Assembly (NCBI RefSeq): GCF_009914755.1
Contig: NC_060935.1
Source: the human T2T-CHM13v2.0 reference genome, Homo sapiens
Length of the DNA stretch: 64,000 bases
Direction: 5' to 3' (one strand)
Position numbers and translations under genes: made by a program. Of this stretch, positions 2,186 to 53,114 are shown one piece after another. Under the pieces are notes generated by a model. That model worked only from the letters and a program-made list of their open reading frames with translations. It was not told where the DNA came from and searched no databases. Numbering within the stretch: the first letter of the stretch is position 1; every line of letters begins with the position of its first letter.

Positions 2186-2649
2186 ATCCCATATAGGGTC
2201 TTGAGACCTTTCTCATCCTCGATTCAATCTGAGGGCAATTCTGAGTTAAATCTCCAAATAACTTCTATTCTCTCCTTGTGCACCTCATCTCTACCCCAAC
2301 ATACACAGGAGAAGATCACCTGAACAATAAACTTGTAGGTTTAAAGAAACTACTAGGCACCTGGCAATCCCTTGCTTCCTGCAATCTTCCTGTCTTTCTT
2401 GAGATACTTTTTCTTAAGGATTTCTCATGGGTCTGCCTCACTTGACAATGGATATATATACTCTCAGTATTTAGCGTGGAGAAGACCCAGACTCATGAAA
2501 GAGATGCAGAGAACTAGCAGGGAGAGACAGAGACAGAGACAGAGAAAAGCCATGACTAGCATCACTAAATTAACCATGTCCTCGAGACTCATAATTCATA
2601 CCATCGTTATATGTTCTCTAGGTAATTTCTGCAACCTTCCAACAAGTGT

Positions 2650-10472: not shown

Positions 10473-12221
10473 AGCAATGGGTTCTATACCTTCAAATATT
10501 TTCTTTTTGTATGTTAGTGTATTTTCTTTTTCTATTTCTGATTGAAGACCTCCAGTTGGGATTTCTTGCAAGACAGGTCTGGTGGTGGTGAATTATCTCA
10601 GCTTTTGTTTGTCCAGGGAAAACTTTATGTCTTCATATTTGAAAGATAGCTATTTTGGATACAGTATTCTTGGATTATAGGTTTTTTTCTTTCAAGACTT
10701 TGAAAATATACTACTCTCTTTAGTCCTTCTTTTCTTTGAGAAATCTGTTGCCAGATGAATTGGAGTTCTTTTGTATGACATTTGGATCTTTTCTCTTGCT
10801 GCTTTTAGGATCCCCTCTCTCTTTGATCTTTGAGAGTTTTACTATTATATGTCTTGGTGTAGTCTTACTTGGAATGAATCTGTTTGGTTCTCTGATCTTC
10901 TTATACCTGGATATTTATATCTTTTTTTTAAGTTTTAGAACATCATCTTTTTGTTATTATTTCTTTGAATATGCTTTCTACCTCTTATTGAATTCCCTTT
11001 TAAACTCCAATAATTCTTAGATTTGGTCTTTTAAAATTATTTTGATCTTGTTAAATTTCTCTGATAAATTTCTAAATTATTTTTTTGTGTTATCTTGGAG
11101 ATCTCTGAGTTTCCTTGAAACTGCTATTTTGAATTGTTCATCAGAGTTCACATATCCCCATCTCATTAGGGTTAGTCACTTGTGTTTTGCTTTGTCTGTT
11201 TGGGGAGGTCATAGTTCTGTTAGATGTTGTTTCTTGTGGATGTATATCTATGTCTTTGCATTAAAAGATTATTTATTTATTTCAGTCTTCTCTGTTTGGC
11301 TTGTTTTGTCTTTTACTATATATGTATGTTTAGAGATTCTTTGTAATTTACCTGTTGATTGTCTTTTCTTTTCTTCTTTCTTTCATTCTTTTGTTTTCTT
11401 TCTCTTTCTTTCTTTTCTGCTAGGTTGTTGTCTCCTTTTCAGCTCTAGATGACAGCTTAAGCCTAGGTCTGCCTCTAAACAATCAGAGTGCCTCCTGTCT
11501 GGAATGCGGTGGCCTCAAAGGGGATAATGGGGGAAGGCCAGATAGGCGTTTGTGCCCAGAAGACCTGTGGAACAAACCTCCTATAGCATGGTGCTGCTGA
11601 GCAGCCACTCTGATTTGGCATCTCCTTTGGCTGACTTACAGAACAGAGTTTCCAGGGCCGGAGATGATAGTCTCACCTCCCCCATTTGTCTCTGGCTGTC
11701 CTCTGAGATATGTTTTCCTTTAGGCATTTCCAATGATTCTCTTGGGTTGAGGCAGAGACATGTTTCCTATCAGGAAACCCAAGATGATGGGGAAGCTGTT
11801 TGTCAACCTTGATCTCACTTTTACAGTGCAGAAACTGTGATTTGAGGAGAAACTTTTCACATACTTGGTGTTGAGCAGATTTCAGGGAGCAACATTGCTG
11901 ATATGGATATCTGATTCTCTTACTGTCTGCTCAGAGCTTTTTCTGAGCATCTCTCTGTGGCTCTGGGAACTATCTTCTCCTCATATTTGAGTTCTGGGAC
12001 ATTACTGGTGATAATCTTGGTGCTGTATTTTTTTTTCTGGTTTTCTAGGACAATGGGAGGTAAAACCAACTTGCTTCTATGCCACCATTTTGGAACCAGA
12101 AGTTACAAACTCTACACTTTTCACTAGCCTGTATTCTTGTATTTTATCAGCTTCATGCTTTTATTCATGCTTTAGGCTGTGCTAATCCTCCTACATCTCA
12201 GCATCTTTTTCTTACCTGTGT

Positions 12222-12651
12222 TGTAACTGGTCTCCAAAGGCAGTTCCAAATTAACCACCCACCCCAGGATTCATCCCACTTGGAAGTCCTGTTCTACAGT
12301 GAATCTGTGCTGGCCCTGTGACTCACTTTAATTAAATATTGCAGACATGAAGCTGTCCCTACACCTAGAAGGCCTGGGCGCTTTCATATCTAGGAACCCA
12401 AGCCAACCAGCTATTCTAGCTCTGTCAGCATCCTGGCTCAGCCTTTATGCTATTTTCATGTAAGTGCTAGATATGTAGCTGAACCATGTTGGACAGTCAG
12501 GCCTAACTGAGCTCCTGGCCAGCATACCAGGGAACACAAGTGGTGTCCTGCTGAGCCCATTGAAACCACAGAATAGTGAGGGAAAAAGGACTGTTGTTTT
12601 AGACCACCCGGTTTTGTGGTGGTTTGTTATGTAGCAATAGAAAACCAAACA
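12222..12651 (+). mobile_element. MLT1-type MaLR LTR
   Basis: 3' end 'gttttgtggtggtttgttatgtagcaatagaaaaccaaaca'. Confidence 0.7.
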
Positions 12652-13114
12652 CCACTTTCAAGGCCTTTCTCAAAAGCCACTCCTTTAGTAGGCGTGTCAC
12701 TATCCCACTACTGTCCCATTCCACAGCTGGAAGTGGGAATCACATAGTTCCCTAGTGTAGTCAAACAGAAGATATTTAGCTTCCTGAGTGGAGCCTTCCA
12801 ACTTGTCTTTGCCTCCCTAAAGTGTATTTCATAAATTCAGCATGTTTTATAATCAGTGGGCCTTTTTAGGTGAGACCAGCAATTTAGGAAAAACTGTTAA
12901 GGGGTAGAAAAATTTGTGGTATACAATTACCCCCAGCAGATCAAATGTGCTTCCTACAGAGATAAAACTACTATCCAGAGAGGGGATCATAGCTTTTGAT
13001 TTTGAAAGTTAGCCAGTTTACAGCTTATCTACTAGAGACAGGGATAACTACTATATTAAGGAAATATAGAGGTATAACCCCAGGAGCATGTATAAAGAAA
13101 AACGTGGAGGGAGA

Positions 13115-13678: not shown

Positions 13679-14759
13679 CAGATGCAGAGGCACACATCTC
13701 CCTGCAAGTGAGAAACGCTGTGAGGAGTGTAATTTGCTGGCAGCGCCCAGGGGCTGCCCACGTGGGATGGCACTTGGGCCAAGTCTGTACTCTCCCCATG
13801 CTTCCTCTAGGGGACTGAAGGGGTCTTTCTTAGAAAGATCTTGCAGCTAAAACTTGAAGAATGAACAGAACTTACACACACTAAGAGAGATAGCAAAATG
13901 TTCTAGCAAAGGAATTATCCATAAGCCAGACTACAAGCAGAATGTCACTCCTCTCCCTTGGTTACCAAGGAACTGTGCTCCTAGCGGATCCACCTCCTTT
14001 CCACGAATGGTCCTAAATGTGACCTCACCTTGGATCTGAAAATGCTGCTTCTGGTTGATGGGCCCTGTAAATCCTCTGGGTTCTTACCCAGGTAAGTGTT
14101 GGTGTCGTGATCAAAGTCATCTGTCGTCTTCTGGAGGGGTTGGGGAAAAAAAAGTGTTGGACTTTGAACACTGGAGAACCTACGTGGACAGAAAACCTGT
14201 TCCTCTATTTTGGCATAAATATCACTGGGGAATGAACTCAGGTCCCAAAAGAGAACAGTCACTTCCACACATTCTTGTGGCCAGATGACAGTTGTGTTAA
14301 AATTAAGCAACCTGTCCACCAGCACCTGGAGCTAGAATGCTTCCTCTGGTTTATGTGGAAGAGAAACCTATAGCAGCTCGAATAGGGAAAGTCAGAACAC
14401 TGGGAGAGGGCACCAGATCATTGTATGGGTGCGGATAAATCTTGACATAAATTCATAGGCTCTCAGGGATGGCAGGGTTGGGGTCTGTATACAGCATGTT
14501 CACTAAGTGGTATCTGCTTGAACAGCTATAGTTACAGAGAACTCACCACCTTCAAAGGCAACTCAGTCTGCCCTTGATCTTCTCTGACTAATAGAAAGGT
14601 TTGCTTTCTGCTTAGTAGAAATGGATCTCCCTGGTGATCTCATGTTTCATTCTCAGTTTTGGCCATAGTGAACAATTCTACCTTTTATTTTCACCTGACA
14701 GAGCTTCAAGTTGTTGAGTAATATTCAACCAATTATTGCTATACAATAATTGTTATTAT

Positions 14760-14950
14760 ACTTCAAACAGCCCATTCTATGTCAAATACTGTGCTAGACA
14801 TTTAAGATATTATACAGTTTAATCTTTAAAACCACCTGTTGATGCAGGTCCTATTCTCATTTTAGAGTTGATGAAACTGAGGCTGAAAGGCAATAAGTAA
14901 CTTGCTAGTAAGTCATAGAGTTGGGGTCCCATCCAGACTGGTGCAACTTC
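14760..14950 (-). mobile_element. MIR
   Basis: 'cattttagagttgatgaaactgaggctgaaagg...aagtaacttgc'. Confidence 0.7.
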
Positions 14951-15919: not shown

Positions 15920-17030
15920 AGCATTTAATTGTGGTTAAAAAACACAGAGAAGTTAGCATCTTAACCAGTTTTAAGGGTACCTTGCTATAGTGTTAAGCAT
16001 GTTCACATTGTTGTGCAATCTCCAGAGCACTTTCCATTTTGCAAAACTGAAATTCCATACCTGTTAAGCAACAACACCGCATTCCCTCCCTCCAGCCCCC
16101 GGCAACAAATATTCTACTTTCTGTCCCTATGGATTTGACTACTCTAGGTAGCTCATATAAGTGGAATCACACAGTACTTGTCTTTTTGTGATCGACTTAT
16201 TTCAGTTAGCATAGTGGCCTCAAGGTTCATCCATGCTGAAGCATAGGTCAGAATTTGCTTCCATTTCAAGGCTAAATCATTTTTGTATGTAGATACTACA
16301 TTTTGTTTAGCCATTCATCCATCTATGGACACTTGGATTGCTTCCAGTTTTGGCTACTGAGAATAATGCTGCCATGAATATGAGTGTATAAGTATCTTCT
16401 TGATACTCTGCTTTTTATTCTTGGGGGTTTATACCCAGAAGTGGAGTTGCTGGGCCATGTGGTAGTTCTATTTTTAATTTCTTGAGGAGCCTCCGTACTG
16501 TTTTCCTTAGTGGCTGCATCATTTCACATTCCCATTAACAGTGCACAAGGGTTTCCATTTCTCTACATTCTCACCAATACTTCTTTTCTGTTGTTTTGTT
16601 TTTCAATAGTAACCATCTTATTGGGTGTGAGATGGTATCTCATTGTAGTTTTGATCTGCATTTCCCTGATGATTAGTGATGTTAAGCATCTTTTCGTGTG
16701 CTTATTGGTAGTTTGAGAACAAAGAAGATATACAAATAACCAATAAGTACATAAAAAAATGGGTTCTTTGTCTATTTTTAAAGTCAGGTTGTTTTGTTTT
16801 TTGGTAGTAAGGGTTTAAATATTCTGAATATTAACCCATTATTAGATACGTGATTTGAAAATATTTTCTCCCATTTTGTGGGTTGTCTTTTCACTATCGA
16901 TTGTGTCTGTTGATGCATAGAACTTAAAATTTTTGATATAGTCCAATTTGTTTTGTTTTGTTGTTGATGTTGCCTGTGCTTCAACTATCATTTCCAAGAA
17001 ATCATCACCAAATTTAATGGCATGAACTGA
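15920..17030 (-). mobile_element. L1MB-type 3' end
   Basis: ORF2 C-terminal remnant ([15 protein letters not shown]) and L1MB-like 3'UTR. Confidence 0.8.
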
Positions 17031-40342: not shown

Positions 40343-43300
40343 GTCATGTGCAAAAACACACATAAGCTCAAAATACAGGGATGGAGGAAGGTTTACTAAG
40401 CAAATGGAAAGAAAAAAAAAGAAGCAGGGGTTGCAATTCTAGTCTCTATAAAACAGACTTCAACCAACAAAAATTAAAAAGGACAAAGAAGGACATTACA
40501 TAATGGTAAAGGGATCAATGCAACAAGAAGAGTTAATTGTCCTAAATATATGTGCACCCAATGCAGGAGCACCCAGATACAAAAAGCAAGTTCTTGGAGA
40601 CCTGCAAAGAGGCTTACACTCCCACACAATAATATTGCGAGACTTTAACACCCCACTGTATATGTTAGACAGATCAACGTGACAGAAAATTAACAAGGAT
40701 ATTCAGGACTTGAACTCAGCTCTGGACCAAGCAGACCTAATGGACATCTACAGAACTTTCCACCCCAAATCAACAGAATATACACTCTTCTCAGCACCAC
40801 ATCACACTTATTCTAAAATTGACCACATAATTGGAAGTAAAACACTTCTTAGCAAATGAAAAAGGATGGAAATCATAACAAACAGTCTCTCAGACCACAG
40901 TGCAATCAAATTAGAACTCAGGATTAAGAAACTCACTCAAAACCACACAACTACATGGAAACTGAACAACCGGCCCCTGAATGACTACTGGGTAAATAAT
41001 GAAATTAAGGCAAAAATAAATAAGTTCTTTGAAACCAATGAGAATAAAGACACACGGTACTAGATTCTCTGGGACACAGCTAAGGCAGTGTTTAGAAGGA
41101 AATTTATAGCATTAAATGCCCACAGGAGAAAATGAGAAAGATCTAAAATCGACACCCTAACATCACAATTAAAAGAACTACAGAAGCAAGAGCAAACAAA
41201 TTCAAAAGCTAGCAGAAGACAAGAAATAACTAAGATCAGAACAGAACTGAGGGAGGTAGAAATGTGAAAAACCCTTAAAAAAATCAATGAATCCAGGAGC
41301 TGGTTTTCTGAAAAGATTAACAAAATAGATAGACTGCTAGCCAGACTAATAAAGAAGGAAAGATACAAGAATCAAATAGACACAACAAAAAATGATAAAG
41401 GGGATATCACCATCGATCCCACAGAAATACAAACTACCATCAGAAAATGCTATAAACACCTCTATGCAAAATAAACTAGAAAATCTAGAAGAAATTGAGA
41501 AATTCCTGGACACATACACCTTCCCAAGATGAAATCAGAAAACAGTCAAATCCCTGAATAGACAAATTACAAGTTCTGAAGTTGAGGCAGTAATTAATAG
41601 CCTACCAGCCCTAAAAAGCCCAGGACCAGATAGATTCACAGATGAATTCTACCAGAGGTACAAAGAGGAGCTGGTACATTTCCTTCTGAAACTATTCCAA
41701 ACAATACAAAAGGAGGTATTCCTCCCTAACTCATTTTATGAGGCCAGCATCATCATGATACCAAAACCTGGCAGAGAGAACCTCAATGCAAAAATCCTCA
41801 ATAAAATCCTGCCAAACTGAATTCAGCAGCACATCAAAAAGCTTATCCACCGCGATCAAGTTGGCTTCATCCCTGGGATGCAAGGCTGGTTCAACATATG
41901 CAAATCAATAAACGTAATCCAGCACACAAACAGAACCAATGACAAAAATCACATGATTATCTCAACAGATGCAGAAAAGGCCTTTGATAAAATTCAACAC
42001 CCATTCATGTTAAAAACTCTCAATAAACTAGGTATTGATGGAATGTATGTCAAAATAATAAGACCTATTTATGACAAACCCACAGCCAATATCATACTGA
42101 ATGGGAAAAAGATGGAAGCATTCCCTTTGAAAACTGGCACTAGACAATGATGCCCTCTCTCACCACTCCTATTCAACATAGTATTGGAAGTTCTGGCCAG
42201 GGCAATCAGACAAGAGAAAGAAATAAAGGGTATTCAATTAGGAAGAGAGGAAGTCAAATTGTCTCTGTTTTCAGATGACATGATTGTACACTTAGAAAAC
42301 TCCATCGTCTCAGCACAAAATCTCATTAAGCTAATAAGCAATGTCAGCAAAGTCTCAGAATACAAAATCAATGTGCAAAAATCACAAGCATTTCTATACA
42401 CCAATAATAGACAAATAGAGAGCCAAATCACGAGTGAACTCCCATTCACAGTTGCTACAAAGAGAATAAAATACCTAGGAATACAACTTACAAGGGATGT
42501 GACGGACCTCTTCAAGGAGAACTACAAACCACTGCTGAACAAAATAAGAGAGGACACAAACAAATGGAAAAGCATTCTGTGCTCATGGATAGAAAGAATC
42601 AATACTGTGAAAATGGCCATACTGCCCAAAGTAATTTATAGATTCAACGCTGTCTCCATCAAGCTACCATTGACTTTCTTCACAGAACTGGAAAAAACTA
42701 CTTTAAATTTCATATGAAACCAAAAAAGAGCCTGTATAGCCAAGACAATCCTAAGCAAAAAGAACAAGGCTGGAGGTATCATACTACCTTACTTTAAACT
42801 ATACTACAAGGCTACAGTAACCAAAACAGCATGGTACTGGCACCAAAACAGATACATAGACCAATGGAACAGAACAGAGGCCTCAGAAATAATGTCACAT
42901 CTACAACCATCTGATCTTTGAAAACCTGACAAAAACAGGAAATGGGGAAAGGATTCCCTATTTAATAAATGATATTGGAAAAACTGGCTATCCTTATATA
43001 GAAAATTGAAACTGGACCCCTTCCTTACACCTTATGCAAAAATTAACTCAAGATGGATTAACGACTTAAACATAAGGCCTAAAACCATAAAAAAAAAAAC
43101 CCTAGAAAAAAACCTAGGAAATACCATTCAGGATCTAGGCATGGGCAAAGACCTTATGACTAAAACACCAAAAGCAATGGCAACAAAAGCCAAAATTGTC
43201 AAAAGGGATCTAATTAAACTAAAGAGCTTCTGCACAGCAAAAGAAACTATCATCAGAGTGAAGAGGCAACCTACAGAATGGGAGAAAATTTTTGCAATCT

Positions 43301-44130
43301 ATGCATCTGACAAAGGGCTAATATCCAGAATCTACAAAGAACTTAAACAGATTTACAAGAAAAAAACAAACAACCCCATCAAAATTGGGCAAAGGTTATG
43401 AACAGACACTTCTCAAAAGAAGACATTTATGCGGCCAACAAACATCTGAAAACAAGCTTATCATCACTGGTCATTAGAGAAATGCAAATCAAAACCACAA
43501 TGAGATACCATCTCATGCCAGTTAGAATGGCAATCATTAAAAAGCCAGGAAACAACAGATGCTGGAGAGGATGTGGAGAAATAGGAATGCTTCTACACTG
43601 TTGGTGGGAGTGTAAATTAGTTCAACCATTGTGGAAGACAGTGTGGTGATTCCTCAAGTATCTAGAACCAGAAATACCATTTGACCCAGCAATCCCTTTG
43701 CAGCACTATTCACAATAGCAAAGACTTGGAACCAACCCAAATGCCCATCAGTGGTAGACTGGATAAAGAAAATGAGGCACATATACATCATGGAATACTA
43801 TGCGGCTATAAAAAAGGATAAGCAGGGACATGGATGAAGCTGGAAGCCATCATTCTCAGCAAACTAACACAGGAACAGAAAACCAAACACTGCATGTTCT
43901 CAATCATAAGTTGGAGTTGAACAATGAGAACACATGGAAACAGGGAGGGGAACACCACACACTGTGGCCTGTCGGGGAGTGGGGGGCTAGGGGAAGGATA
44001 TCATTAGGAGAAATACCTAATGTAGATGACTTGTTGATGGGTACAGCAAACCACCGTGGCACATGTATACCTGCGTAACAAACCTGCACGTTCTGTACAT
44101 GTATCCCAGAACTTAAAGTATATTAAAAAA
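40343..44130 (+). mobile_element. 5'-truncated L1PA7/8-like element (disrupted ORF2 plus 3'UTR)
   Basis: ORF2 fragments 41878..42717 and 43006..43649; small internal deletions near 41778, 43697 and 43820. Confidence 0.92.
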
Positions 44131-44567
44131 GAATTAAATTAGATAATGCAAGTAAAGTGCCTAGGACTGTGGCTGGAATATAAGGTTTGCTTACTGAAGA
44201 ATCATAATTATTACTAAGGCAGTGGCTTTCAGCCACGTCAAGTTCCATAGGGTGAAAATGAATGATGATTCTCCATGGCCCCAGACTGTGATTAAAAAGA
44301 AAAATGAAAGAGGTAGAATACCAGTTACAAATGACAAATGTTTTTAAAAATTGTTAGAGCTGAACAAGGGCATATTTGGTTGCCTTTGAAAGTAACAAAT
44401 TCCCTGTAACTCAAGCTCTTCGAGCAGATACCAGTTGGTGAATATGCTGTACAGACTCCAACACTGGCAGCCATAAGAGTCTGTGAATTTATTGAAGAAT
44501 GCTTTGTTGCTTTTTCCAGGGTCTTGACTCTTCCTATTCTTTGAGCTGCTACAGATTTATGCTACAG

Positions 44568-44672
44568 ATTATGTACTGTTTTCCATATAAAGCAGAGGAA
44601 CGCATTCAAGCTTCAGGTGCGAGTGGACAGGTGCCTAATTTCAACACAGTCCTCATCTGGCCACAAGACCAG
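44568..44672 (+). pseudogene. GLYAT-like exon A
   Basis: Frame-corrected it reads IYGTVFHIKQRNAFKLQVRVDRWPNFNTVLIWPQDQ versus recalled GLYAT VYGTVFHINHGNPFNLKAVVDKWPDFNTVVVCPQEQ. Acceptor ctacag is duplicated (AG at 44553-44554 and 44566-44567); donor CAG|gtagg; -2 and -1 deletions. Confidence 0.88.
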
Positions 44673-44813
44673 GTAGGAGTGACTGTTCTCTAACTGGGAC
44701 ATGAGCCCATTTTTTGGTGATATTTTTGTCAGAGTTGGGATGAACAACTTTTCTATCTGCATAAGTTCTCTAGTGTTTCAAAGTCTGTTCTTTTTCTTTT
44801 TGGAGCCATCCAG

Positions 44814-44938
44814 GAGATGACAGATGACCTTGATCACTACACCAACACGTACCAAATCTATTCCAAGAATGCAGAGAATTTACCAGAGGTCCTTGGCCAG
44901 CCAGGCATCATAACTGGAAGCAACATTTGTAGACTCAA
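44814..44938 (+). pseudogene. GLYAT-like exon B
   Basis: atccag|EMTDDLDHYTNTYQIYSKNAENLPEVLGQPGII(-1)NWKQHL*TQ versus recalled GLYAT DMTDDLDHYTNTYQIYSKDPQNCQEFLGSPELINWKQHLQIQ. TAG at 44930-44932. Confidence 0.95.
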
Positions 44939-45499
44939 GTTGCAGGAACATTGGGTGCCATTTGTGGGAAAGAGATAGGCCTTGTGTGGGCACAACCTTT
45001 GGGAACCAAGGTGGGGGCATAAAATTTGGTACCAGGCTGGCTTGTGTGTGGTATTTATTCTAGTCAACCAATGATAGGGGCAAAGAGGTTTATACAAATT
45101 TATAAATTTGTGGGTATCAGTGGGGGAGTCTTTGGACAAGATGAAGGCCAAAGGTTTTAGGTATTGCCTTCCTCCGAGCAGGGAGAGGTAATACTGCCTA
45201 CTTAGTTCAAGGGTCAGTGTCAGAGAGCAGGCTCTATAATTCTTTCTTTCTTTTAAAATCTCATTTAATAGAAAATTAATGATTTCTCTTAAGATTGATG
45301 ATTAACATAAGTTTGCATATGTTTGTTGACCACTCATATTCCTCCTATGCATTGCCTATCATACCTTTGCCAATTATTGTTTTAGCTTATCTTTTGTGCA
45401 TTAATTATGAATAGTTTTTTTATTGCAATATAATACACCCATAAAATTTACCCTTGTAAAGTGTACAGTTAAGTTGTTTTAAGCATACTCATAAAGTGA

Positions 45500-46420
45500 C
45501 CACTGAAGTCTCTGATCAATTAGCTTAGCGATCCTTAAATGCCTGGAACCATTCACCTCCTAGCCTTTGCTGAGGGGCTTTGTGTTTGTATTAGGTCATG
45601 CTTTCAGTTTTTAGGCAGGTAGTTTACAACTCTGCCTTAACCTTCATTTCCTGTGTGTGTGCAGCCTCAAGGTCAATTGGATCGGAGATCTTGTTAGAGT
45701 CTTCTCGTACTTCCCTGGGCATGTCCACAGCTATATGCAAACATGTAGCCTTCTAGATTCTTAGAAATTTGTCAGAGCTTTCAAAGCTGTCTATGGACAT
45801 CTCATCCCCCAGCTGATCCTTTTAAATGTTTTGTTTAGGTTTTTGTTTGCCCTAAATATCGTTGCCATGTCAGGCAGCTATGATGTATTAATCGATGCTG
45901 ACTGTTTTCAGCAGATGACTGGGGGAAATGGCTTTGCACAGTAAGCAAGCCCTGACTAAGATCATCTGAAAAAAGCTGTGAGCGTTGGGGTTCACAGGGA
46001 ACTGCCAGACATGTCAAATAGCAACAAACCTCTGAGAATGTTGCTTTCAGGGAGCTCCAAACCCATACTGCCTGTCCAATAGTTGCTAGGCTCCTGGCTT
46101 TCACCATGATTGTAGGACTGTTGGTTTATACCACGGAGCTGCGGAGAGGCCACTACGGATAGGGCAAGTCACAATACCACAAAGCTCACTATTCTCAGAA
46201 AGTTTCAGCTGCTTTTTCAACAGGTCATGGACAAAAAAACAAACAGATTCAGCTGTTTCTCTGGAATAAATCTTCTTCAGATTGTTGCAAATTTTTGGTT
46301 AATTTTTGGAGTTTTGGAAAATGTTTATTTTGGCTTTTTTCAGTGTTCTTGTCACTTTGATGAAGGAGAGGATTTTTAGAGGTCCTTATTCCATCATTCC
46401 CACTGATGTCACCCTCTAAT
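45500..46420 (-). mobile_element. Old L1M 5' region
   Basis: 'gtagtttacaactctgccttaaccttcatttcctg...'. Confidence 0.55.
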
Positions 46421-46479
46421 GTCATTTATGCCATCCCTGAAAAACCACAGAGGTCTCTGGAGAAATTTTTTATATTTTT

Positions 46480-46974
46480 TATTATGTATTTATTTTTTTT
46501 AAAATAGAGACAGAGTCTCACTATGTTGTCCAGGCAGGTAAGAACTGCTGGTGTCAAGTGATTCTCCCAACTCACCCTCCCAAAGTGTTGGAATTACAGG
46601 CATGAGCCACCATGCCCAGCCTTCTGGAGAAATTTTTTCATGACCTTTTTGCACCTACTTTTATTTGTTTACTTTTAATTTTATTTTAGAAACAGAGTCT
46701 TGCTCTGTTACCCAGGCTGGAGTGCAGTAGCATGATCATGGCTAATTGCCACCTCAAAATCCTGGGCTCAAGTGATCCTCCCACCTCAGCCTCCCAAGTA
46801 ACTGGAACTACAAGCCCATGCCATCTTGCCTGGCTAAATTAAAAACATTTTTCTTTTGTAGGGACCAGAGTCTCACTATGTTGCCCAGGCTAATCTTGAA
46901 CTGGCCTCAAGTGATCCTCTCACCTTGACCTCCCAAAGTGCTGGGATTACAGGCGTGAGCCAGTGTGCCCAGCC
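46480..46974 (-). mobile_element. Alu monomer (46480-46622) plus AluJ (46670-46974)
   Basis: Antisense Alu sequences. Confidence 0.85.
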
Positions 46975-47912
46975 TTCATCCCATTTTTAATCCCTCTTTT
47001 CTAGATTCTTTTCTTCCTGGAAAGCTCCTTTTTCTCTTTACCAGATTATAATACAAAACAGGTAAAAATAAATGGGCTTATTTACCTGTAGCATTAAGAA
47101 AGAAAATGTCCTCATTAGAGTTCTTCTCAGCTGCTTAATCCGAGTTCAAGGTCCCCATCAGTGCTTTACTTCTCAGCACTGGCTTTTAGTCATCCAGGAG
47201 CAAGGCAATCTTTCCCTTGAAGTCAGCTACCTGCCTGTGCCACCAACTGTGCAGAAAACAATTTGAAACAAGGTAGACTAGGAAGTTCCCAGAAAGGTAT
47301 GGGTAAAGTGCTGGAGAGTTTCAGAGGAGAGATAAATCATTTTCCAATCTAGTGTATTAAGGAAGGCTCTATGATAGGTGGAACACTGGAAGGTGTCTTT
47401 GAGGAATTTGTGCTTTTGAATATAGAGCAGTAGAAAGAGAAGGGTGGGAATGGGAGTGGGTGGGAGGGTGAGGAATTGAGGAAGAAACTTACTCAATTTG
47501 ACATAGGGTTGGTAATGTCATTTTCAGATTTGCTGTGATCCCCTAGAAACCTTGTAGTTGTAGAATGGGATCAAAGTTTTCTTTTTGGCATTTATTTTAA
47601 AGAATAAGATTAAAAGCACTTATAGATTATGTAACACTTTGACAGAAAGCATCTCATTTGCTTTTGAATACAGCTCTGTGAATAAGCAGGACAGTAGTTC
47701 AGGTGGTCAAGTGATCACCTGAATGAGTCGAAGTTATTTCAGGGTAAAACTGCACCTCTAAACCTGTCCGTACCTCTGAATCCCATCTATTTTTCATGCC
47801 ACTGCCTAGAACATCTCACCTACCTTTCTAAGAGGGACCTCCTGCAACTCCCTCAAGTGAATTGAGACTCTATTTTATATTGATTTGTAGCTACTTTCAC
47901 TTTTCCCTTTAA

Positions 47913-48216
<304 letters not shown>

Positions 48217-48458
48217 CACAATTTCTAAGTATGCATTTATTTATGTGGTTGCACATGTGATATCTGTCTCTCTTATTAGACTATTTATTTATTAGATCTG
48301 TAAGGTCAGGGATTGCCTGGTTTGTACACCCTTGTATATCAAGGAGCATAGTGCCTAACACTGTACTCAGCAAATGTTTGTGGAATGTGTGCATTCTACC
48401 TACAGACTTCCCCTGAGTTCTCTCTGGACATACACATTCTCTTTTGTTTCCCTTATAG

Positions 48459-48626
48459 TGACTCAGTCCAGCTTAAATGAAGTGATTAAGAATGTGGCAG
48501 CTGCCAAGTCTCTCACTGTCTCATGATTGGAACGACTCACCTTTATGTCTGGAAACTGAAGAAACTTCTTCCTTCTCTGCTTAATGAAAAGAAAATGGCA
48601 TCACATGTTGCTAAACCCGGTGACAT
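48459..48626 (+). pseudogene. GLYAT-like exon C
   Basis: cttatag|TG-TQSSLNEVIKNVAAAKSLTVS*LERLTFMSG(fs)KLKKLLPSLLNEKKMASHVAKPGD-AT|gtgagt versus recalled GLYAT SQPSLNEAIQNLAAIKSFKV...GGKPKAI. TGA at 48524-48526. Confidence 0.9.
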
Positions 48627-48878
48627 GTGAGTGACATAAAAGCTACCTCAAACGGGCATGTGCACATACACACACACACATTCTGCATTTTAAACATCAG
48701 ATGTGTCCCAGTGGAGTTGGCAGTCAAGAGAGTCACTGTAAAGATAATTCCATTTGCCTGCTGGTTCAATTAATCATATGAGAAGATCCTCATCCAACTG
48801 GTTAATCATAGTGAACGTAATTATTTACTGATGACACACTTTGTTCCTGTACTGTGCATACATTATCTCTTTTCATCC

Positions 48879-49333
48879 TGTCAAAGAAAAAAATATTCAA
48901 TGATATTTGCAAAGCTTGGTAAGGAAGACTTCATTCAGGACTATTGCAATGGTATAGGGACCACTGCAATGGGACTTTGCCATAGGGGAGAGAGACTGGG
49001 GTTAACTCTGAATACTGCGTGGGCAAGTAGAAATTTTTACAGCCAAGAGCAGGGTGGAAGTCAGTGGATGGAAAATCACTCAGAAGAAATATCAGGAGTA
49101 AGGGGAATTTTGGCTAAACTGACCTAACAGAATTCTTGCTGAAGACAGGCCGAGCTGATGAGACATCACCTGGGGGATGGTGGAGGATGAAATATTGAGG
49201 GTGGTAGATTATTGCTAAACTGACTTAGCAAGGTTGTTTGATAAAACTGGATTTTATGAGGAAGCACACAGATGGGCCTAGCAGAAGGTTCAGGAGCATG
49301 ACTAAATTTTGATTAAGCAGATAATCTTTGTCT
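48879..49333 (-). mobile_element. MER31-type ERV1 solo LTR inserted in a MIR
   Basis: 4-bp TSD ATCC (48875-48878, 49334-49337). Confidence 0.8.
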
Positions 49334-50349
49334 ATCCTCACAAACTTTCTGAGGATTACTCAGGTGAGCAGAATGGGCCTCAGAGAGCAAGAGGAACTTG
49401 CATGAGGTTACAAAGCAAGCACAAAGTAGGGCTAGAGTTGAGGTCATGTTCATCTGCTTCTAGGGCTCTCGAATTTAAGCTCCATTTTATTTATTTCTAG
49501 GTAATTTTCACGGGTGTCTGTCACTCCAGGGACTGTTTTTGGTTTATATAACTGAAAGTGCTTTTATCCTTTTGTATGTCATAGTTATTTGTCCAAAATG
49601 CTACAAATTCCAAAGCATTTCATACCCATTAACTTTATAGAGTCAGAAATAGAAGCTCAGATCTAGTAATTAACCTGGCAAAAGTTACTCAGTGGGTAAA
49701 GGATAGAGCTTTGGGTGGAAATTCAAGTCAGCCTGCCTGTAAGCTCATGATTCTAACTAGACATGCTGGGATTCTTCTGTACTGTCTCATTACTCAAACC
49801 CCTTTTCATACATCAGGTTAGCTCCAGGCTTTAAAAATTACATACAGCCAGCACTTCAGCAAGGTCCTTTGTATGCACTGAACCTTTTCTTCTGTTAAAA
49901 CTTGGGATCACATTCTCATTCATTACAAAAAATATTCTGGATCTTATGTTTAAGATAAATAATGACAGCTCTATTTATGAGACCCCCTTGACCATATTTG
50001 GTTTAACTAGAAAATGTTAGTGTATTTATGAAAATCAGAGGACAAAAGGCAGAGAACTAGTATGGGGTATGGAGAAGTGTGCACTAATTTCGCCTGTGCT
50101 TCAAGCTACCAAGGATTTCCAAGTCATTTGACTTCTGTGGACTTCAGCTTCCCCAGGTAAAAAGAATCCATTGGCTTGGGTTATCTCAAGGCCTATTTTG
50201 AGCTCTAAAAGATGGACTCCAAAGTTCCAACTATGCTCTTCAATAGATGCAAGCTATATTCTTGGCTTCCTTATTTATAAAACTTGGTACAAAATTTCTG
50301 TCCTACCTACCTCAGAGGGTTTTTTTTTTAGAATTTTAAGATTCATTTT

Positions 50350-50820
50350 TATTTTTAAATTTGTTTAATCGACAAGAATTATATACATTTATTGTATATA
50401 AGATTATGTTTTGAAATATGTGTACACTGTGTAATGGTTACATCCAGCTAATTAACATACCCATTACCTCCCACACTTATCATTTTTTTGTGGCACAAAC
50501 ACTTAAAATCTACTCTCTTAGCAAGTTTCAAGTACACAATACATTGTTATTAACTACAGTCACCATGTTATACAATAAATCTCTTAAGTTTATTCCTCCT
50601 GCCTAATTAAACATTGTATCCTTTAGCCAACATCTCCCCAGTCCCTCCCAAAGCTGCTCCCCAACTCACAGTAACCACCATTCTACTCTCTACTTCTGTG
50701 AGTTTAACTTTTTAAGATTTCACATATAAGATAGATGATGCAGTATTTATTCGTCTTTCTGTACCTGGCTTATTTCACTTAGCATAATGACTGCCAGCAT
50801 CATTGTGAATGACAAGATCT
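50350..50820 (-). mobile_element. L1MA-type 3' end
   Basis: 'cacttaaaatctactctcttagcaagtttcaagtacacaatac'. Confidence 0.8.
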
Positions 50821-50957
50821 TTTCAAGGTTTGTTGTTGTTGTTGTTGTTGTTGTTTGTTTGTTTTGTTTTTAAAGATCAAATAACATAGTGTTAACTTCC
50901 CATTGAAAGCAACTCAATGCCATTTGGTTCACTTTGCCTTTTCCTTGTTCCCTACAG

Positions 50958-51399
50958 CAACAAAGAAATGTTTAAAGAATCTTCCCTGGACATAAGCCAT
51001 GCTGAATTGGTGACTCAGAGTTGGACATTTGGTGGGACGGAGAGGAGCCTGAAATTCATCCACCGTTGTATCTAGAACTTTTCTAACACTTGTCTGCTGG
51101 GCCCAGAGGGGAGGCCTGTGTCCTGGGTCTTGATGGACCAAAGAGGAGAATCAAGAATGGCAGGTATTGTACCCCAGTACTGGGGGAAGGGACTAACGAA
51201 CTATGTCTTTTATACACACACTCATAATATAGAAAATTTCAACGTGCCCCTATACCTCCATGTGGAAAAAACTAATCAAATCATGGTAAAGACTGTGTTG
51301 CGCATGAACTATGTGCACATACTCCCCACCTGGAACCAACGGAACTGTGAGCCAACAGATGCTTCCTCTGAGATGGTAAGTATGTCGTTGGGGTTGTAG
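50958..51399 (+). pseudogene. GLYAT-like exon D (C-terminal GNAT-fold half)
   Basis: cctacag|C-NKEMFKESSLDISHAELVTQSWTFGGTERSLKFIHRCI*NFSNTCLLGPEGRPVSWVLMDQRGESRMAG...WNQRNCEP. Single TAG at 51073-51075. The tail is ORF 51118..51399. Confidence 0.95.
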
Positions 51400-51920: not shown

Positions 51921-53114
51921 GAATCTGGATTTTCTGGATTTAGGCAGAATCCATTTACCACTGGGTAAGCAGGCAAGTCCTGGGGCCATCATTCTATGAG
52001 GATCCCAAAGTCCCTGGCTTAGAACTGGGCTACTACCCAGGAAGACAAACCCTTTTTAACTGCTTATGTCATGTTGCTGAAGTTAAAAGATATCACAGAT
52101 TCTGTGTTCTTCTTCTTTCTCAACCCATGCTACAATCACTTCACAATGCATCTGAAGATGTATAAAACAATGTGCAGGGTTAATTACAGAAGACACTGTA
52201 GTGTTCTTAGCCATTCTCTAATCTTAGCCATTCTCTAATCTTAGATGTTATTTTATAGCTCTTTCCTGTTACAAATTAGTACTGCTCTAAATTTTTTCTA
52301 AGTGGAGATTTTTTCTCTTCAAATAATTTCTTGTACTGGGTTCCAAGACCTAGGCTCTCTGCGTTGCCAGGGGTGTATGAACATCACTATGGCTCTCAGT
52401 CCATATGGCCTAAGTGCCCTCCACATGGATTCTGCTCAATGAATGAGTTTGTCACTTTCCTGCCACTTCCTCAGAATTAAGTTAACGCCATTTATTGAGC
52501 AGACAACTCTTAGAAAGATGCATATATGTGGCTGGTGTAAGCAGGAATTGAAGAGAGACAGCAGCCTCAGTTGCAAAAATGGTGGCCGTAACATACCAGG
52601 AGACCATCTAAGCAAGTAAAAGCAAACCTGTACACTTTACATATTATGTAAAAGCCAAACACAGTCATTCTTACCAACAGCCAATCTAGGAATATTTCTC
52701 TGTGTATGTCACTCAGACATTCCAGAATAGATAGTGCAACAGATGGGTATCTCTTACCACCTAGAGGGTAAAGAAACACAAAAAGGAGCTCTGCTCATTT
52801 CTTAAAAGAAGACTGTCTCCTAACCAGGGGAACTTTTAATTTTATTTTCACTTCCAGAGAACCAGGCAGAAAGCATTTTCATAGGAGTGACAACTTTGTC
52901 AAAAGTGGCAACATAAACCAAGGATGTTGAAAAACTCTTTTATTCATACATTTTCCTTTGTAGTTACATCTTCATATACCCTCGTCATGCCAGTCTTTTT
53001 AATGTAAACTCCCAGAAAACGTCAAGCTGTGTAATTTTAGAAACTAAAAGTTAAAGTTCCCTTCAACAACAACAGTTTTCACTTCTGTAGGCAGAATATT
53101 TAATCTACTGGCAT

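What the first reader, a model, noticed from the sequence alone, without database searches (positions are those of the whole stretch)
44568..51399. Hidden intron-containing GLYAT-family paralog: a lost acyl-CoA:amino-acid conjugating enzyme
Seen: four spliceable exons whose corrected translation is clearly GLYAT-like (MTDDLDHYTNTYQIYSK, SLNEVIKN, FGGTERSLKFI, CLLGPEG, WVLMDQRGESRMAG, WNQ). The Glu of the GE-x-RM motif (GAA 51148-51150), equivalent to the proposed GLYAT catalytic glutamate, is retained. Lesions: TAG 44930, TGA 48524, TAG 51073 and several frameshifts. Established: GLYAT enzymes conjugate acyl-CoAs such as benzoyl-CoA with glycine. Inference: much of the sequence differs from GLYAT and GLYATL1/2/3 as recalled, so this looks like an old, distinct paralog that may be intact in other mammals, not a recent copy or retrocopy.
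Basis: partly seen in the sequence, partly recalled or inferred. Interest (0 to 1): 0.8.

Follow-up and report, generated by a model that had tools for sequence, protein, structure and literature searches.

The report
Ancient dead GLYAT-type gene beside GLYAT
This is the decayed, intron-containing remnant of a very old relative of the detoxification enzyme gene GLYAT, which seems to have worked in our primate ancestors until roughly 30-50 million years ago and has no known living copy.

Summary
Window 44568-51399 (+) holds coding exons 3-6 of a GLYAT-family gene, with Pfam N- and C-domain matches up to E 2.7e-29 and GLYAT's own intron positions and phases.

It is a pseudogene:
- no first coding exon was found;
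- stops lie at 44930, 48524 and 51073;
- frameshifts lie in exons 3, 4 and 5;
- the exon-4 donor reads TT, not GT.

It is neither a retrocopy nor a recent copy.
- Third codon positions differ from GLYAT at 53%, against 30% between GLYAT and the neighbouring pseudogene LOC100420019.
- Trees place it with macaque copies outside all 31 sampled placental GLYAT, Keg1-like and phenylacetyltransferase-like proteins (95/93). AU tests do not reject other placements.
- Only 2 of 64 family-conserved columns changed before the human-macaque split. Since then conserved and variable columns have changed equally.

So it probably coded until about the catarrhine stem. Only truncated catarrhine copies turned up in two protein libraries; no full-length ortholog did. 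Dead Keg1 ortholog remains a rival. RefSeq annotates nothing here; GENCODE and other mammalian genomes could not be checked. A second 0.9-kb relic (exons 3-4) lies inverted at 13920-14827.

The parts
44568..44672 (+). Coding exon 3 equivalent (..TVFHIKQRNAFKLQVRVDR / PNFNTVLIWPQDQ). The acceptor is duplicated (first AG ends at 44554, second at 67). One 1-nt deletion lies near 44631. The donor cag|gtagga is intact.
44814..44939 (+). Coding exon 4 equivalent (EMTDDLDHYTNTYQIYSK...NWKQHL*TQ). The acceptor is intact. It has a 1-nt deletion near 44912 and TAG at 44930-44932. The donor is mutated to TT at 44940-44941.
   Evidence: (PF06021 39.3 bits)
48459..48626 (+). Coding exon 5 equivalent (TQSSLNEVIKNVAAAKSLTVS* ... 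KKLLPSLLNEKKMASHVAKPGDM). It has TGA at 48524-48526 and a frame change between the two halves. The acceptor tatag| and donor |gtgagt are intact.
50958..51375 (+). Last coding exon equivalent: the end of the N domain plus the whole C (GNAT) domain. Its only lesion is TAG 51073-51075. The family's stop after ..NCxPL is absent, and the frame runs on through ..CEPTDASSEM to a gtaagt donor at 51376, or to TAG 51397-51399 if unspliced. GAA 51148-51150 is the Glu aligned with the Glu of TGEMRMAG in 7pk0.
   Evidence: (PF08444 101.7 bits)
45008..45012 (+). Possible cryptic donor (aag|gt). The ORF of an unnamed library record closest to the macaque copy (P0152) runs through the exon-4 donor to the equivalent of this point and then joins exon 6.
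   Evidence: inference from the protein only
52858..52887 (+). Match to the last 10 residues of the macaque model P0002 (8 of 10 identical, with a stop in human). It is probably a downstream exon used by the macaque transcript model.
   Evidence: tblastn E 0.2; weak
13920..14827 (-). Relic B: an old inverted partial duplicate of the exon 3 to exon 4 region of the same lineage. Intron identity to relic A is 78% and 72%, exon identity 81-82%. It shares the short (~135 bp) intron 3, keeps the GT donor of exon 4, and lacks A's acceptor duplication.

Best explanation
This is an unprocessed pseudogene with no working parent copy in the human genome. It derives from a GLYAT-subfamily gene that split off before the placental GLYAT, Keg1-like and glycine N-phenylacetyltransferase-like genes diverged, at about the depth of the marsupial-placental split. 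It kept coding for a GNAT-fold acyl-CoA:amino-acid N-acyltransferase for most of its history and lost protein-level constraint at about the catarrhine stem, roughly 30-50 million years ago. It now cannot make the enzyme, because the ATG exon is missing and it carries three stops, frameshifts in three exons and one dead donor. Shown: family membership, exon plan, lesions, synonymous-site age relative to GLYAT/LOC100420019, and neutral change among catarrhine copies. Inferred: absolute dates, the ancestral activity, and the absence of living orthologs.
For: Family and gene plan:
- Pfam N and C domains match, as does the solved GLYAT 7pk0.
- The 3 of 3 shared intron positions have GLYAT's phases 0, 1 and 2.
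- The relic lies about 17 kb from GLYAT in the 11q12.1 cluster, which holds 11 of the genome's 12 C-domain matches.

Old and distinct:
- In exon 6 (132 codons, no indels), third positions differ at 0.53 from GLYAT and 0.53 from LOC100420019, against 0.30 between those two. The contrast is 0.227, bootstrap 0.12-0.33.
- Four-fold sites give 0.56 and 0.45 against 0.32.
- Over exons 4-6, dS is 1.79 [1.07-3.55] and 1.23 [0.83-2.00] against 0.61 [0.44-0.82].
- The other four pseudogene copies tabulated are 0.78-0.93 identical at third positions to working genes, or 0.70 for LOC100420019 vs GLYAT; the 58.754 fragment was not tabulated.
- No intron homology to GLYAT or LOC100420019 was found by blastn.
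- Careful tree (40 rows x 295 columns, LG+C20+F+G4): GLYAT subfamily 96/95; relic plus two macaque-type copies 100/100; 31 placental proteins form a clade without it at 95/93. The topology is the same with 71 rows under LG+G4 (SH-aLRT 99).
- A proxy for the catarrhine ancestor is 54-57% identical to every placental clade (ranges: GLYAT/other 54-60, Keg1-like 50-57, phenylacetyltransferase-like 44-57). Placental clades are 66-70% identical to one another, and placental vs marsupial is 58-59%.
- The ERSLKF state occurs only in the relic's lineage and the 2 marsupials; the -LK- state was scored in 4 of the 118 named library rows, 2 marsupials and 2 relic-lineage records.

A working gene for most of its history:
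- dN/dS to GLYAT is 0.18.
- Only 2 of 64 family-conserved columns carry a change shared by the catarrhine copies. Working proteins show a median of 2.5% departures.

Neutral since then:
- Human vs macaque differences hit conserved columns 12/64 and variable columns 16/85 (p 1.0). Working orthologs give 2/109 vs 16/142 (p 0.005) and stronger contrasts.
Against: - AU tests do not reject the relic as sister of primate GLYAT (dlnL 5.8, p 0.36), of the phenylacetyltransferase-like clade (8.2, p 0.28) or of the Keg1-like clade (4.9, p 0.37).
- The relic is a long branch (stem 0.5-0.7), and the tree tool warned of long-branch joins.
- Exon 4 does not fit the age signal: its third positions differ from LOC100420019 at only 0.28.
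- dS above 1 is saturated.
- A gene that worked until 30-50 million years ago should have left orthologs elsewhere, yet none was found. That is awkward unless the orthologs are the Keg1-like genes or are unannotated.
- Signature columns are few and mixed: 4 placental states, 3 marsupial states and 2 other.
- The macaque protein alone cannot show that any single lesion is shared with human. The His codon could be CAT or CAC, and the exon-5 offsets differ between the two species.
Confidence: 0.62

Rival explanations
1. It is the dead primate ortholog of the Keg1-type gene that tree shrews, rodents, bats and artiodactyls still have. That gene died in anthropoids.
For: No primate falls in the Keg1-like clade among the 117 named proteins placed on the tree. 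The AU test does not reject relic plus Keg1-like, and this is the smallest likelihood loss of the three alternatives (4.9, p 0.37). The exon-5 stretch KKLLPSLLNEKKM is most like Keg1-like rows, for example 10 of 13 residues match the Myotis row. This rival would also explain why a gene that worked until recently has living relatives. From memory only, mouse Keg1 lies between Cntf and Glyat, the same interval as this relic; no call checked this.
Against: The ancestor proxy is 50-57% identical to Keg1-like proteins, whereas Keg1-like proteins are 69-80% identical to each other over the same columns. Third positions are about twice as diverged from LOC100420019 as GLYAT is, although the trees place Keg1-like close to the phenylacetyltransferase-like clade. 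The clade of 31 placental proteins excludes the relic at 95/93. The relic has ERSLKF, not the placental ERSQRF. It lacks the Keg1-like ..NLGKV segment and has ..KSLTV.
Confidence: 0.17
2. It is a primate-specific tandem copy of GLYAT, or of the neighbouring LOC100420019 lineage, that looks old only because it decayed fast.
For: It lies next to GLYAT. Its best amino-acid identity among human copies is to GLYAT (51.5% over exon 6). AU does not reject relic plus primate GLYAT (p 0.36). Exon 4 is 80.6% identical in DNA to LOC100420019.
Against: Decay cannot raise synonymous divergence above that of the equally dead LOC100420019. First and second positions are far better kept than third positions (0.72 vs 0.47). 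Only 2 of 64 conserved columns changed before the catarrhine split. No intron homology to GLYAT was found, while the relic's own old duplicate still aligns in introns at 72-78%.
Confidence: 0.04
3. The locus still does something. It may make a transcript, or a short protein from the last exon, as the 176-aa and 195-aa macaque gene models suggest.
For: UniRef holds two Macaca fascicularis models built on this locus. An unnamed library record looks like an ORF from a spliced transcript joining extended exon 4 to exon 6. Exon 6 has no indel, against about 4-5 in exons 3-5.
Against: Changes among the copies fall on conserved and variable columns alike. Human exon 6 has a stop 39 codons in. Human exon 6 (10 of 61) and exons 3-5 (10 of 49) depart from conserved residues at a similar rate. 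RefSeq annotates no gene in the window (hub note). No expression data could be consulted.
Confidence: 0.07

Closest known systems
GLYAT (glycine N-acyltransferase), 17 kb away on the opposite strand
   Same: It has the same two Pfam domains, the same intron positions and phases for exons 3-6, the same subfamily clade (96/95), and the Glu aligned with the Glu of TGEMRMAG in 7pk0.
   Different: Exon DNA identity is only 63-74% and exon-6 amino-acid identity 51.5%. Third positions are nearly saturated. Intron 3 is about 140 bp here against about 2.4 kb in GLYAT. The family stop is lost. The reading frame is broken and the ATG exon is missing.
LOC100420019, the annotated pseudogene on the far side of GLYAT
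   Same: It is also an intron-containing dead member of the GLYAT subfamily in the same cluster. Its decay at conserved columns is similar (18 of 107, against 20 of 110 for this relic).
   Different: LOC100420019 has clear living orthologs. It is sister to the lemur 'glycine N-phenylacetyltransferase-like' proteins (95/78) inside the Euarchontoglires part of that clade. The relic studied here groups with no living protein.
Keg1-type glycine N-acyltransferase-like genes of non-primate mammals
   Same: They belong to the GLYAT subfamily, no primate member was seen, and orthology is not excluded by the AU test.
   Different: The relic is no closer to them than to any other placental clade, and it falls outside the placental clade in every tree built.
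Macaca fascicularis UniRef entries named 'Glycine N-acyltransferase-like protein' (P0002, P0153)
   Same: They are copies of the same lineage: 79-81% identical over exon 6, with the same lost stop and the same ..CEPTDASSEM tail.
   Different: They are automatic, truncated models of 176 and 195 aa. Their N-terminal parts are unrelated or out-of-frame sequence, so they are not evidence of a working gene.

Membership tests
GLYAT family (Pfam Gly_acyl_tr_N + Gly_acyl_tr_C) | Significant matches to both domains | tested here: met
   PF06021 at 39.3 and 47.5 bits (cut-off 31.2) and PF08444 at 101.7 bits (cut-off 27); 101.4 bits in the genome scan.
GLYAT family | Exon-intron plan of the mammalian genes | tested here: met
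   the exon 3/4, 4/5 and 5/6 junctions fall at the same codons and phases (0, 1, 2) as in human GLYAT. The first coding exon was not found.
GLYAT family | Glu of the ..GE.RM.. motif. Its role as proposed general base is recalled from the literature, not from a call. | tested here: met
   GAA 51148-51150 aligns with the Glu of TGEMRMAG in 7pk0_A. Presence only; no activity can follow from a broken frame.
Working protein-coding gene | Open frame from ATG to stop with usable splice sites | tested here: not met
   Three in-frame stops, frameshifts in exons 3, 4 and 5, a TT donor at 44940-44941 and no ATG exon.
GLYAT subfamily, as against GLYATL1, GLYATL2 and GLYATL3 | Falls in the clade holding GLYAT rather than the GLYATL copies | tested here: met
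   12-row clade with SH-aLRT 99; 96/95. First and second position identity is 0.72 to GLYAT against 0.46-0.57 to the GLYATL-type copies.
Ortholog of GLYAT proper, of the phenylacetyltransferase-like genes, or of Keg1-like genes | Nests inside that clade, closer to it than to the other clades | tested here: inconclusive
   Trees exclude it from all three together (95/93) and it is equidistant to them. AU tests reject none (p 0.28-0.37). No clade-specific signature columns were usable.
Processed pseudogene (retrocopy) | No introns; exons contiguous | tested here: not met
   Exons are separated by about 0.14, 3.5 and 2.3 kb with AG/GT boundaries.
Recent duplicated pseudogene | High synonymous and intronic identity to a working parent | tested here: not met
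   Third-position identity to GLYAT is 0.47, and no intron homology was found.

The most novel reading that the evidence does not exclude
The relic is the last trace of a fourth GLYAT-subfamily gene of roughly therian age. It remained a working mitochondrial acyl-CoA:amino-acid conjugating enzyme in the primate line until about the catarrhine stem, and it has no coding survivor in any annotated mammal. Its death, together with that of the neighbouring phenylacetyltransferase ortholog LOC100420019, would be part of the remodelling of amino-acid conjugation in higher primates, where glutamine replaces glycine for arylacetates.
Probability: 0.33. Interest if true: 0.6.

Novelty: new member of a known kind. 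Interest (0 to 1): 0.45.

Why it matters
Amino-acid conjugation of xenobiotic and microbial acids differs sharply between primates and other mammals. After phenylacetate, primates excrete mainly phenylacetylglutamine and rodents mainly phenylacetylglycine (passages of PMC12572923). The human GLYAT cluster holds at least two dead members of the GLYAT subfamily beside the single working GLYAT. One, LOC100420019, is the ortholog of the phenylacetyltransferase-like genes that lemurs, rodents and cattle keep. The other, this relic, belongs to a much older lineage that seems to have coded until fairly late in primate history.

If that holds, it is a concrete, datable gene loss to set beside the known shift in conjugation chemistry. 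It would also caution against treating rodent or dog glycine conjugation as a model for humans. If the relic turns out to be the Keg1 ortholog, it is an ordinary lineage-specific loss, still worth annotating.

Tried and rejected
- First coding exon: tblastn with a full-length relative, a family HMM on six frames and blastn with exon 2 of GLYAT and LOC100420019 found nothing convincing. The best candidate, 2403-2444 (-), reads ..QTHEKSLRKSI. Its local score of 17 is tied by a hit inside an L1 block near 56.4 kb, it has no other GLYAT feature, and it lies on the wrong strand. I rejected it as chance.
- Clade signature columns for GLYAT proper, Keg1-like and phenylacetyltransferase-like proteins: only 2 columns qualified, which is uninformative.
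- Sharing of marsupial or outgroup states: 16 of 43 departures for the relic against 9 of 29 for LOC100420019 (p 0.62). Working proteins give 45%, so the measure does not discriminate. Marsupial states alone give 7 of 43 against 0 of 29 (p 0.037), which is weak.
- C-terminal extension: marsupial proteins also run past ..NCEPL, but their tails are not alike, so this is not usable.
- The careful tree of 71 rows did not finish in the time allowed. I replaced it with a hand-picked set of 40 rows.
- The search for homologous proteins with 'longer' lengths found nothing. The word index missed even GLYAT, so that blank means little.
- I first read the macaque model P0153 as proof that TGA 48524 and the exon-5 frameshift predate the human-macaque split. 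On checking codons this does not follow: His may be CAC, and the net offsets differ between species. I withdrew the claim.
- Literature: eight searches found no paper on this locus, on LOC100420019, or on pseudogenes of the GLYAT subfamily. Passages of PMC9205974 say only that mouse Glyat and Gm4952 lie near Fam111a. PMC12922068 was irrelevant.
Those tables may list this locus.
- The search of earlier findings was not open.

Full report
**What is there**

The window is human chr11:58590001-58654000 of T2T-CHM13 (hub note). The three stops and the GAA codon lie exactly where stated.

Nine translated pieces were scanned against Pfam, and five matched the two GLYAT domains. Three exceeded the curated cut-offs: PF06021 at 39.3 and 47.5 bits, and PF08444 at 101.7 bits with E 2.7e-29. 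The last exon aligns over 92 residues with the solved Glycine N-acyltransferase 7pk0_A at E 7.9e-25, and the relic's Glu lies under the Glu of TGEMRMAG. A family HMM built from 27 full-length library proteins and run over all six frames of the window picked out the same four exons.

**Gene plan and lesions**

tblastn with a full-length relative mapped human GLYAT's five coding exons in loci L012 and L013. Exon-by-exon DNA alignments show that the relic holds the equivalents of coding exons 3-6:
- exon 3 at 44568-44672
- exon 4 at 44814-44939
- exon 5 at 48459-48626
- exon 6 at 50958-51375

The three shared junctions have GLYAT's positions and phases. DNA identity to GLYAT is 70.1, 74.4, 63.2 and 65.3% for the four exons.

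The lesions are:
- Exon 3: a tandem duplication of the acceptor region (net +11 nt) and a 1-nt deletion.
- Exon 4: a 1-nt deletion, TAG 44930, and a donor that reads TT.
- Exon 5: TGA 48524 and a net -4 nt.
- Exon 6: TAG 51073 only.
- The family's stop after ..NCxPL is absent, so the frame runs on to ..CEPTDASSEM|gtaagt.

The relic's own old duplicate (relic B, below) helped to separate real lesions from alignment noise. No first coding exon was found. The one candidate, at 2.4 kb on the minus strand, is no better than a chance hit inside an L1 block.

**Place in the human cluster**

A scan of the whole assembly with the C-domain model gave 12 matches, 11 in chr11:58.64-59.04 Mb and one on chr6. 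The N-domain model gave 46 exon-sized matches. Over exon 6 the relic is 51.5% identical in protein to GLYAT, 40% to LOC100420019, 32-37% to five of the six GLYATL-type copies on chr11 (29% to the sixth, L009), and 26% to the chr6 copy.

The GLYATL-type pseudogenes tabulated are young copies, with third-position identity of 0.78-0.93 to working genes. This relic is 0.47 identical to GLYAT and 0.47 to LOC100420019 at third positions. That is close to the 0.38-0.44 seen between GLYAT and the GLYATL-type genes. Its first and second positions are 0.72 identical to GLYAT.

**Age from silent sites**

Exon 6 aligns without indels among the relic, GLYAT and LOC100420019 (132 codons).

| Measure | Relic vs GLYAT | Relic vs LOC100420019 | GLYAT vs LOC100420019 |
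|---|---|---|---|
| Third-position difference, exon 6 | 0.53 | 0.53 | 0.30 |
| Four-fold site difference, exon 6 | 0.56 | 0.45 | 0.32 |
| Four-fold transversions, exon 6 | 0.40 | 0.35 | 0.18 |
| Nei-Gojobori dS, exons 4-6 | 1.79 [1.07-3.55] | 1.23 [0.83-2.00] | 0.61 [0.44-0.82] |

The third-position contrast is 0.227, with a bootstrap interval of 0.12-0.33. dN/dS between the relic and GLYAT is 0.18.

All three loci lie within 120 kb in one genome, so differences in mutation rate are an unlikely cause. LOC100420019 is itself dead, so decay alone does not explain the excess. Exon 4 is an exception: its third positions differ from LOC100420019 at only 0.28 over 43 codons, and DNA identity is 80.6%. 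I cannot tell whether that reflects an old conversion tract or constraint on this highly conserved exon. blastn found no intron homology between the relic and 33 kb of the GLYAT and LOC100420019 loci.

**Relatives elsewhere**

An exhaustive HMMER search of 1.84 billion representatives with exon 6, read with X at the stop, gave 151 hits at E<=0.001. The closest were:
- P0002: 79% identical over 140 residues.
- P0003: 92% over 88 residues.
- P0009: 98% over 56 residues, after which the two sequences read differently.
- P0030: 100% over 38 residues.

Everything else was 50% or less over the whole exon. The indexed library names P0002 and P0153 as UniRef 'Glycine N-acyltransferase-like protein' of Macaca fascicularis, 176 and 195 aa. 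Their N-terminal parts are unrelated sequence or an out-of-frame reading of exon 5. An unnamed record (P0152, 209 aa) reads exon 4 out of frame, runs through its donor to the equivalent of about 45010, and joins exon 6.

A profile of these copies was searched against 5.8 billion proteins and gave 255 hits at E<=1e-15. Of the 120 listed, the four copies of this lineage score 197-349 bits. The next hit scores 176 bits, and identity to the first query sequence is 54% or less for all of the other 116. So no full-length protein of this lineage exists in either library. The hits ranked 121-255 were not shown, and mammalian genomes could not be searched.

**Trees**

Five trees were built.
- 103 rows, exon 6 only. 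These were 92 of the 150 library representatives that cover at least 105 residues, plus the 11 human copies (incl. the relic). The relic plus P0002 is sister to a 10-row GLYAT clade, with SH-aLRT 99 for the 12 rows.
- 127 rows, exon 6 only. These were 117 of 118 named or labelled proteins plus the human copies. The tree is poorly resolved, and the relic's lineage joins the two marsupial proteins (SH-aLRT 91).
- 71 hand-picked rows, 295 columns, LG+G4. The result is a three-way split: marsupials, the relic's lineage, and 59 placental rows (SH-aLRT 99).
- 40 hand-picked rows under LG+C20+F+G4, quick search: the same split, with the 31-row placental clade at SH-aLRT 88.
- The same 40 rows under LG+C20+F+G4, careful search. 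The subfamily has 96/95, the relic's lineage 100/100 with a stem of 0.69, and the 31 placental rows 95/93.

Against this, AU tests on the 40-row set under LG+G4 do not reject the relic with primate GLYAT (p 0.36), with the phenylacetyltransferase-like clade (p 0.28) or with the Keg1-like clade (p 0.37). The tool also warned that long branches meet. The trees are therefore consistent with an early split but do not prove it.

**When it stopped coding**

Family-conserved columns were defined as those at least 90% identical among 60 working proteins.
- Human differs from macaque at 12 of 64 conserved columns and 16 of 85 variable columns (p 1.0).
- The other two pairs of copies behave the same way.
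- Working orthologs avoid conserved columns: Homo vs Chlorocebus GLYAT gives 2/109 against 16/142 (p 0.005), and three further pairs give p < 0.0001.

So the copies have drifted freely since the human-macaque split. Only 2 of 64 conserved columns carry a change shared by all copies. That is about the level of a working protein, where the median departure is 2.5% and the maximum 12.4%. In human exon 6, 10 of 61 conserved columns depart. Exons 3-5 give 10 of 49, so the whole gene seems to have been released at about the same time.

A lineage rate of about 11-13% of conserved columns per branch follows. Combining it with a recalled split age near 29 million years gives the dating. The Poisson upper bound for 2 events then puts loss of constraint between the split and roughly 25 million years before it. 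The dates are inference.

A proxy of the ancestral catarrhine sequence (133 columns) is 54-57% identical on average to each placental clade. Those clades are 66-70% identical to each other, and placental vs marsupial is 58-59%. The long stem is therefore made of changes at variable sites, as expected of a long independent working history.

**Rivals**

The main rival is that this is the dead primate ortholog of the Keg1-type genes.
- For it: no primate appears in the Keg1-like clade, the AU test allows it, one exon-5 stretch resembles Keg1-like rows, and from memory mouse Keg1 lies between Cntf and Glyat.
- Against it: the equal distance to all clades, the silent-site excess, the 95/93 clade that excludes the relic, and the ERSLKF state shared only with marsupials.

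A recent copy of GLYAT is nearly excluded by the silent sites and the missing intron homology. A residual function for the transcript or for exon 6 cannot be excluded, but the pattern of change gives no support for it.

**Second relic**

At 13920-14827 on the minus strand lies an inverted partial copy of the exon 3 to exon 4 region. It aligns to 44128-45046. Identity is 78% in the upstream intron (158 of 202), 72% in intron 3 (96 of 134) and 81-82% in the exons. It shares the short intron 3, so it was copied from this lineage and not from GLYAT. At these divergences it is old, tens of millions of years before the gene died.

**Prior knowledge**

RefSeq annotates no gene in the window (hub note). 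Eight full-text searches found nothing on this locus. The macaque UniRef entries show that automatic pipelines have already seen the locus in another species.

**Verdict**

This is a real, intron-containing, very old and now dead member of the GLYAT subfamily. It is ordinary in kind: a pseudogene in a tandem cluster. It is unusual in being an ancient lineage with no known living copy that seems to have coded until fairly late in primate history.

Noticed in passing
outside the window: G000 chr11:58698506-58710570 (-), loci L008, L014, L015 (hub: LOC100420019, window 108500..118174): This annotated pseudogene is the dead human ortholog of the 'glycine N-phenylacetyltransferase(-like)' genes of lemurs, rodents and cattle. 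It is sister to the lemur proteins (95/78), inside a Euarchontoglires group (97/89), with an end branch of 0.42. It lacks the exon-3 equivalent and has a TGA in the last exon. This fits the known excretion of phenylacetylglutamine rather than phenylacetylglycine in primates (PMC12572923 passages). Whether the link is in print was not established.
   Followed up: partly
window 13920-14827 (-): Relic B is an old inverted partial duplicate (exons 3-4 plus flanking intron) of the relic studied here. It lies 30 kb upstream, close to the two RefSeq enhancer features at 11189-11686 and 12318-12872.
   Followed up: yes
G000 chr11:58754278-58754439 (-), locus L011: This is a far more decayed GLYAT-family last-exon relic with many stops. 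It is most like library representatives P0026 and P0011, which lie outside the GLYAT subfamily (..HQWKCTP ending), and may be another ancient dead lineage in the cluster.
   Followed up: partly
locus L012 7100-7147 (-) = G000 chr11:58665091-58665186: A second, partial copy of GLYAT's exon 3 (ALMDKWPDFNTVVVCP) sits about 170 bp upstream of the real exon 3, inside GLYAT's intron.
   Followed up: no
G000 chr11:58.905, 59.000 and 59.044 Mb (loci L003-L005): Three GLYATL1-type last exons have open frames in this assembly, and further GLYATL-type pseudogenes lie at 58.843, 58.943 and 58.945 Mb. The copies at 59.000 and 59.044 Mb are 0.98 identical at third positions.
   Followed up: no
window 43169-43908 vs 16156-16978: Further inverted matches (61-65% identity) run collinear with the relic A / relic B pair but lie inside a block masked as repeats. 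They may be part of the same old inverted duplication or independent L1 pieces.
   Followed up: no
window 2403-2444 (-): A 14-residue match (..QTHEKSLRKSI) to the start of GLYAT proteins. It is judged chance, because an equal-scoring hit lies in an L1 block.
   Followed up: yes
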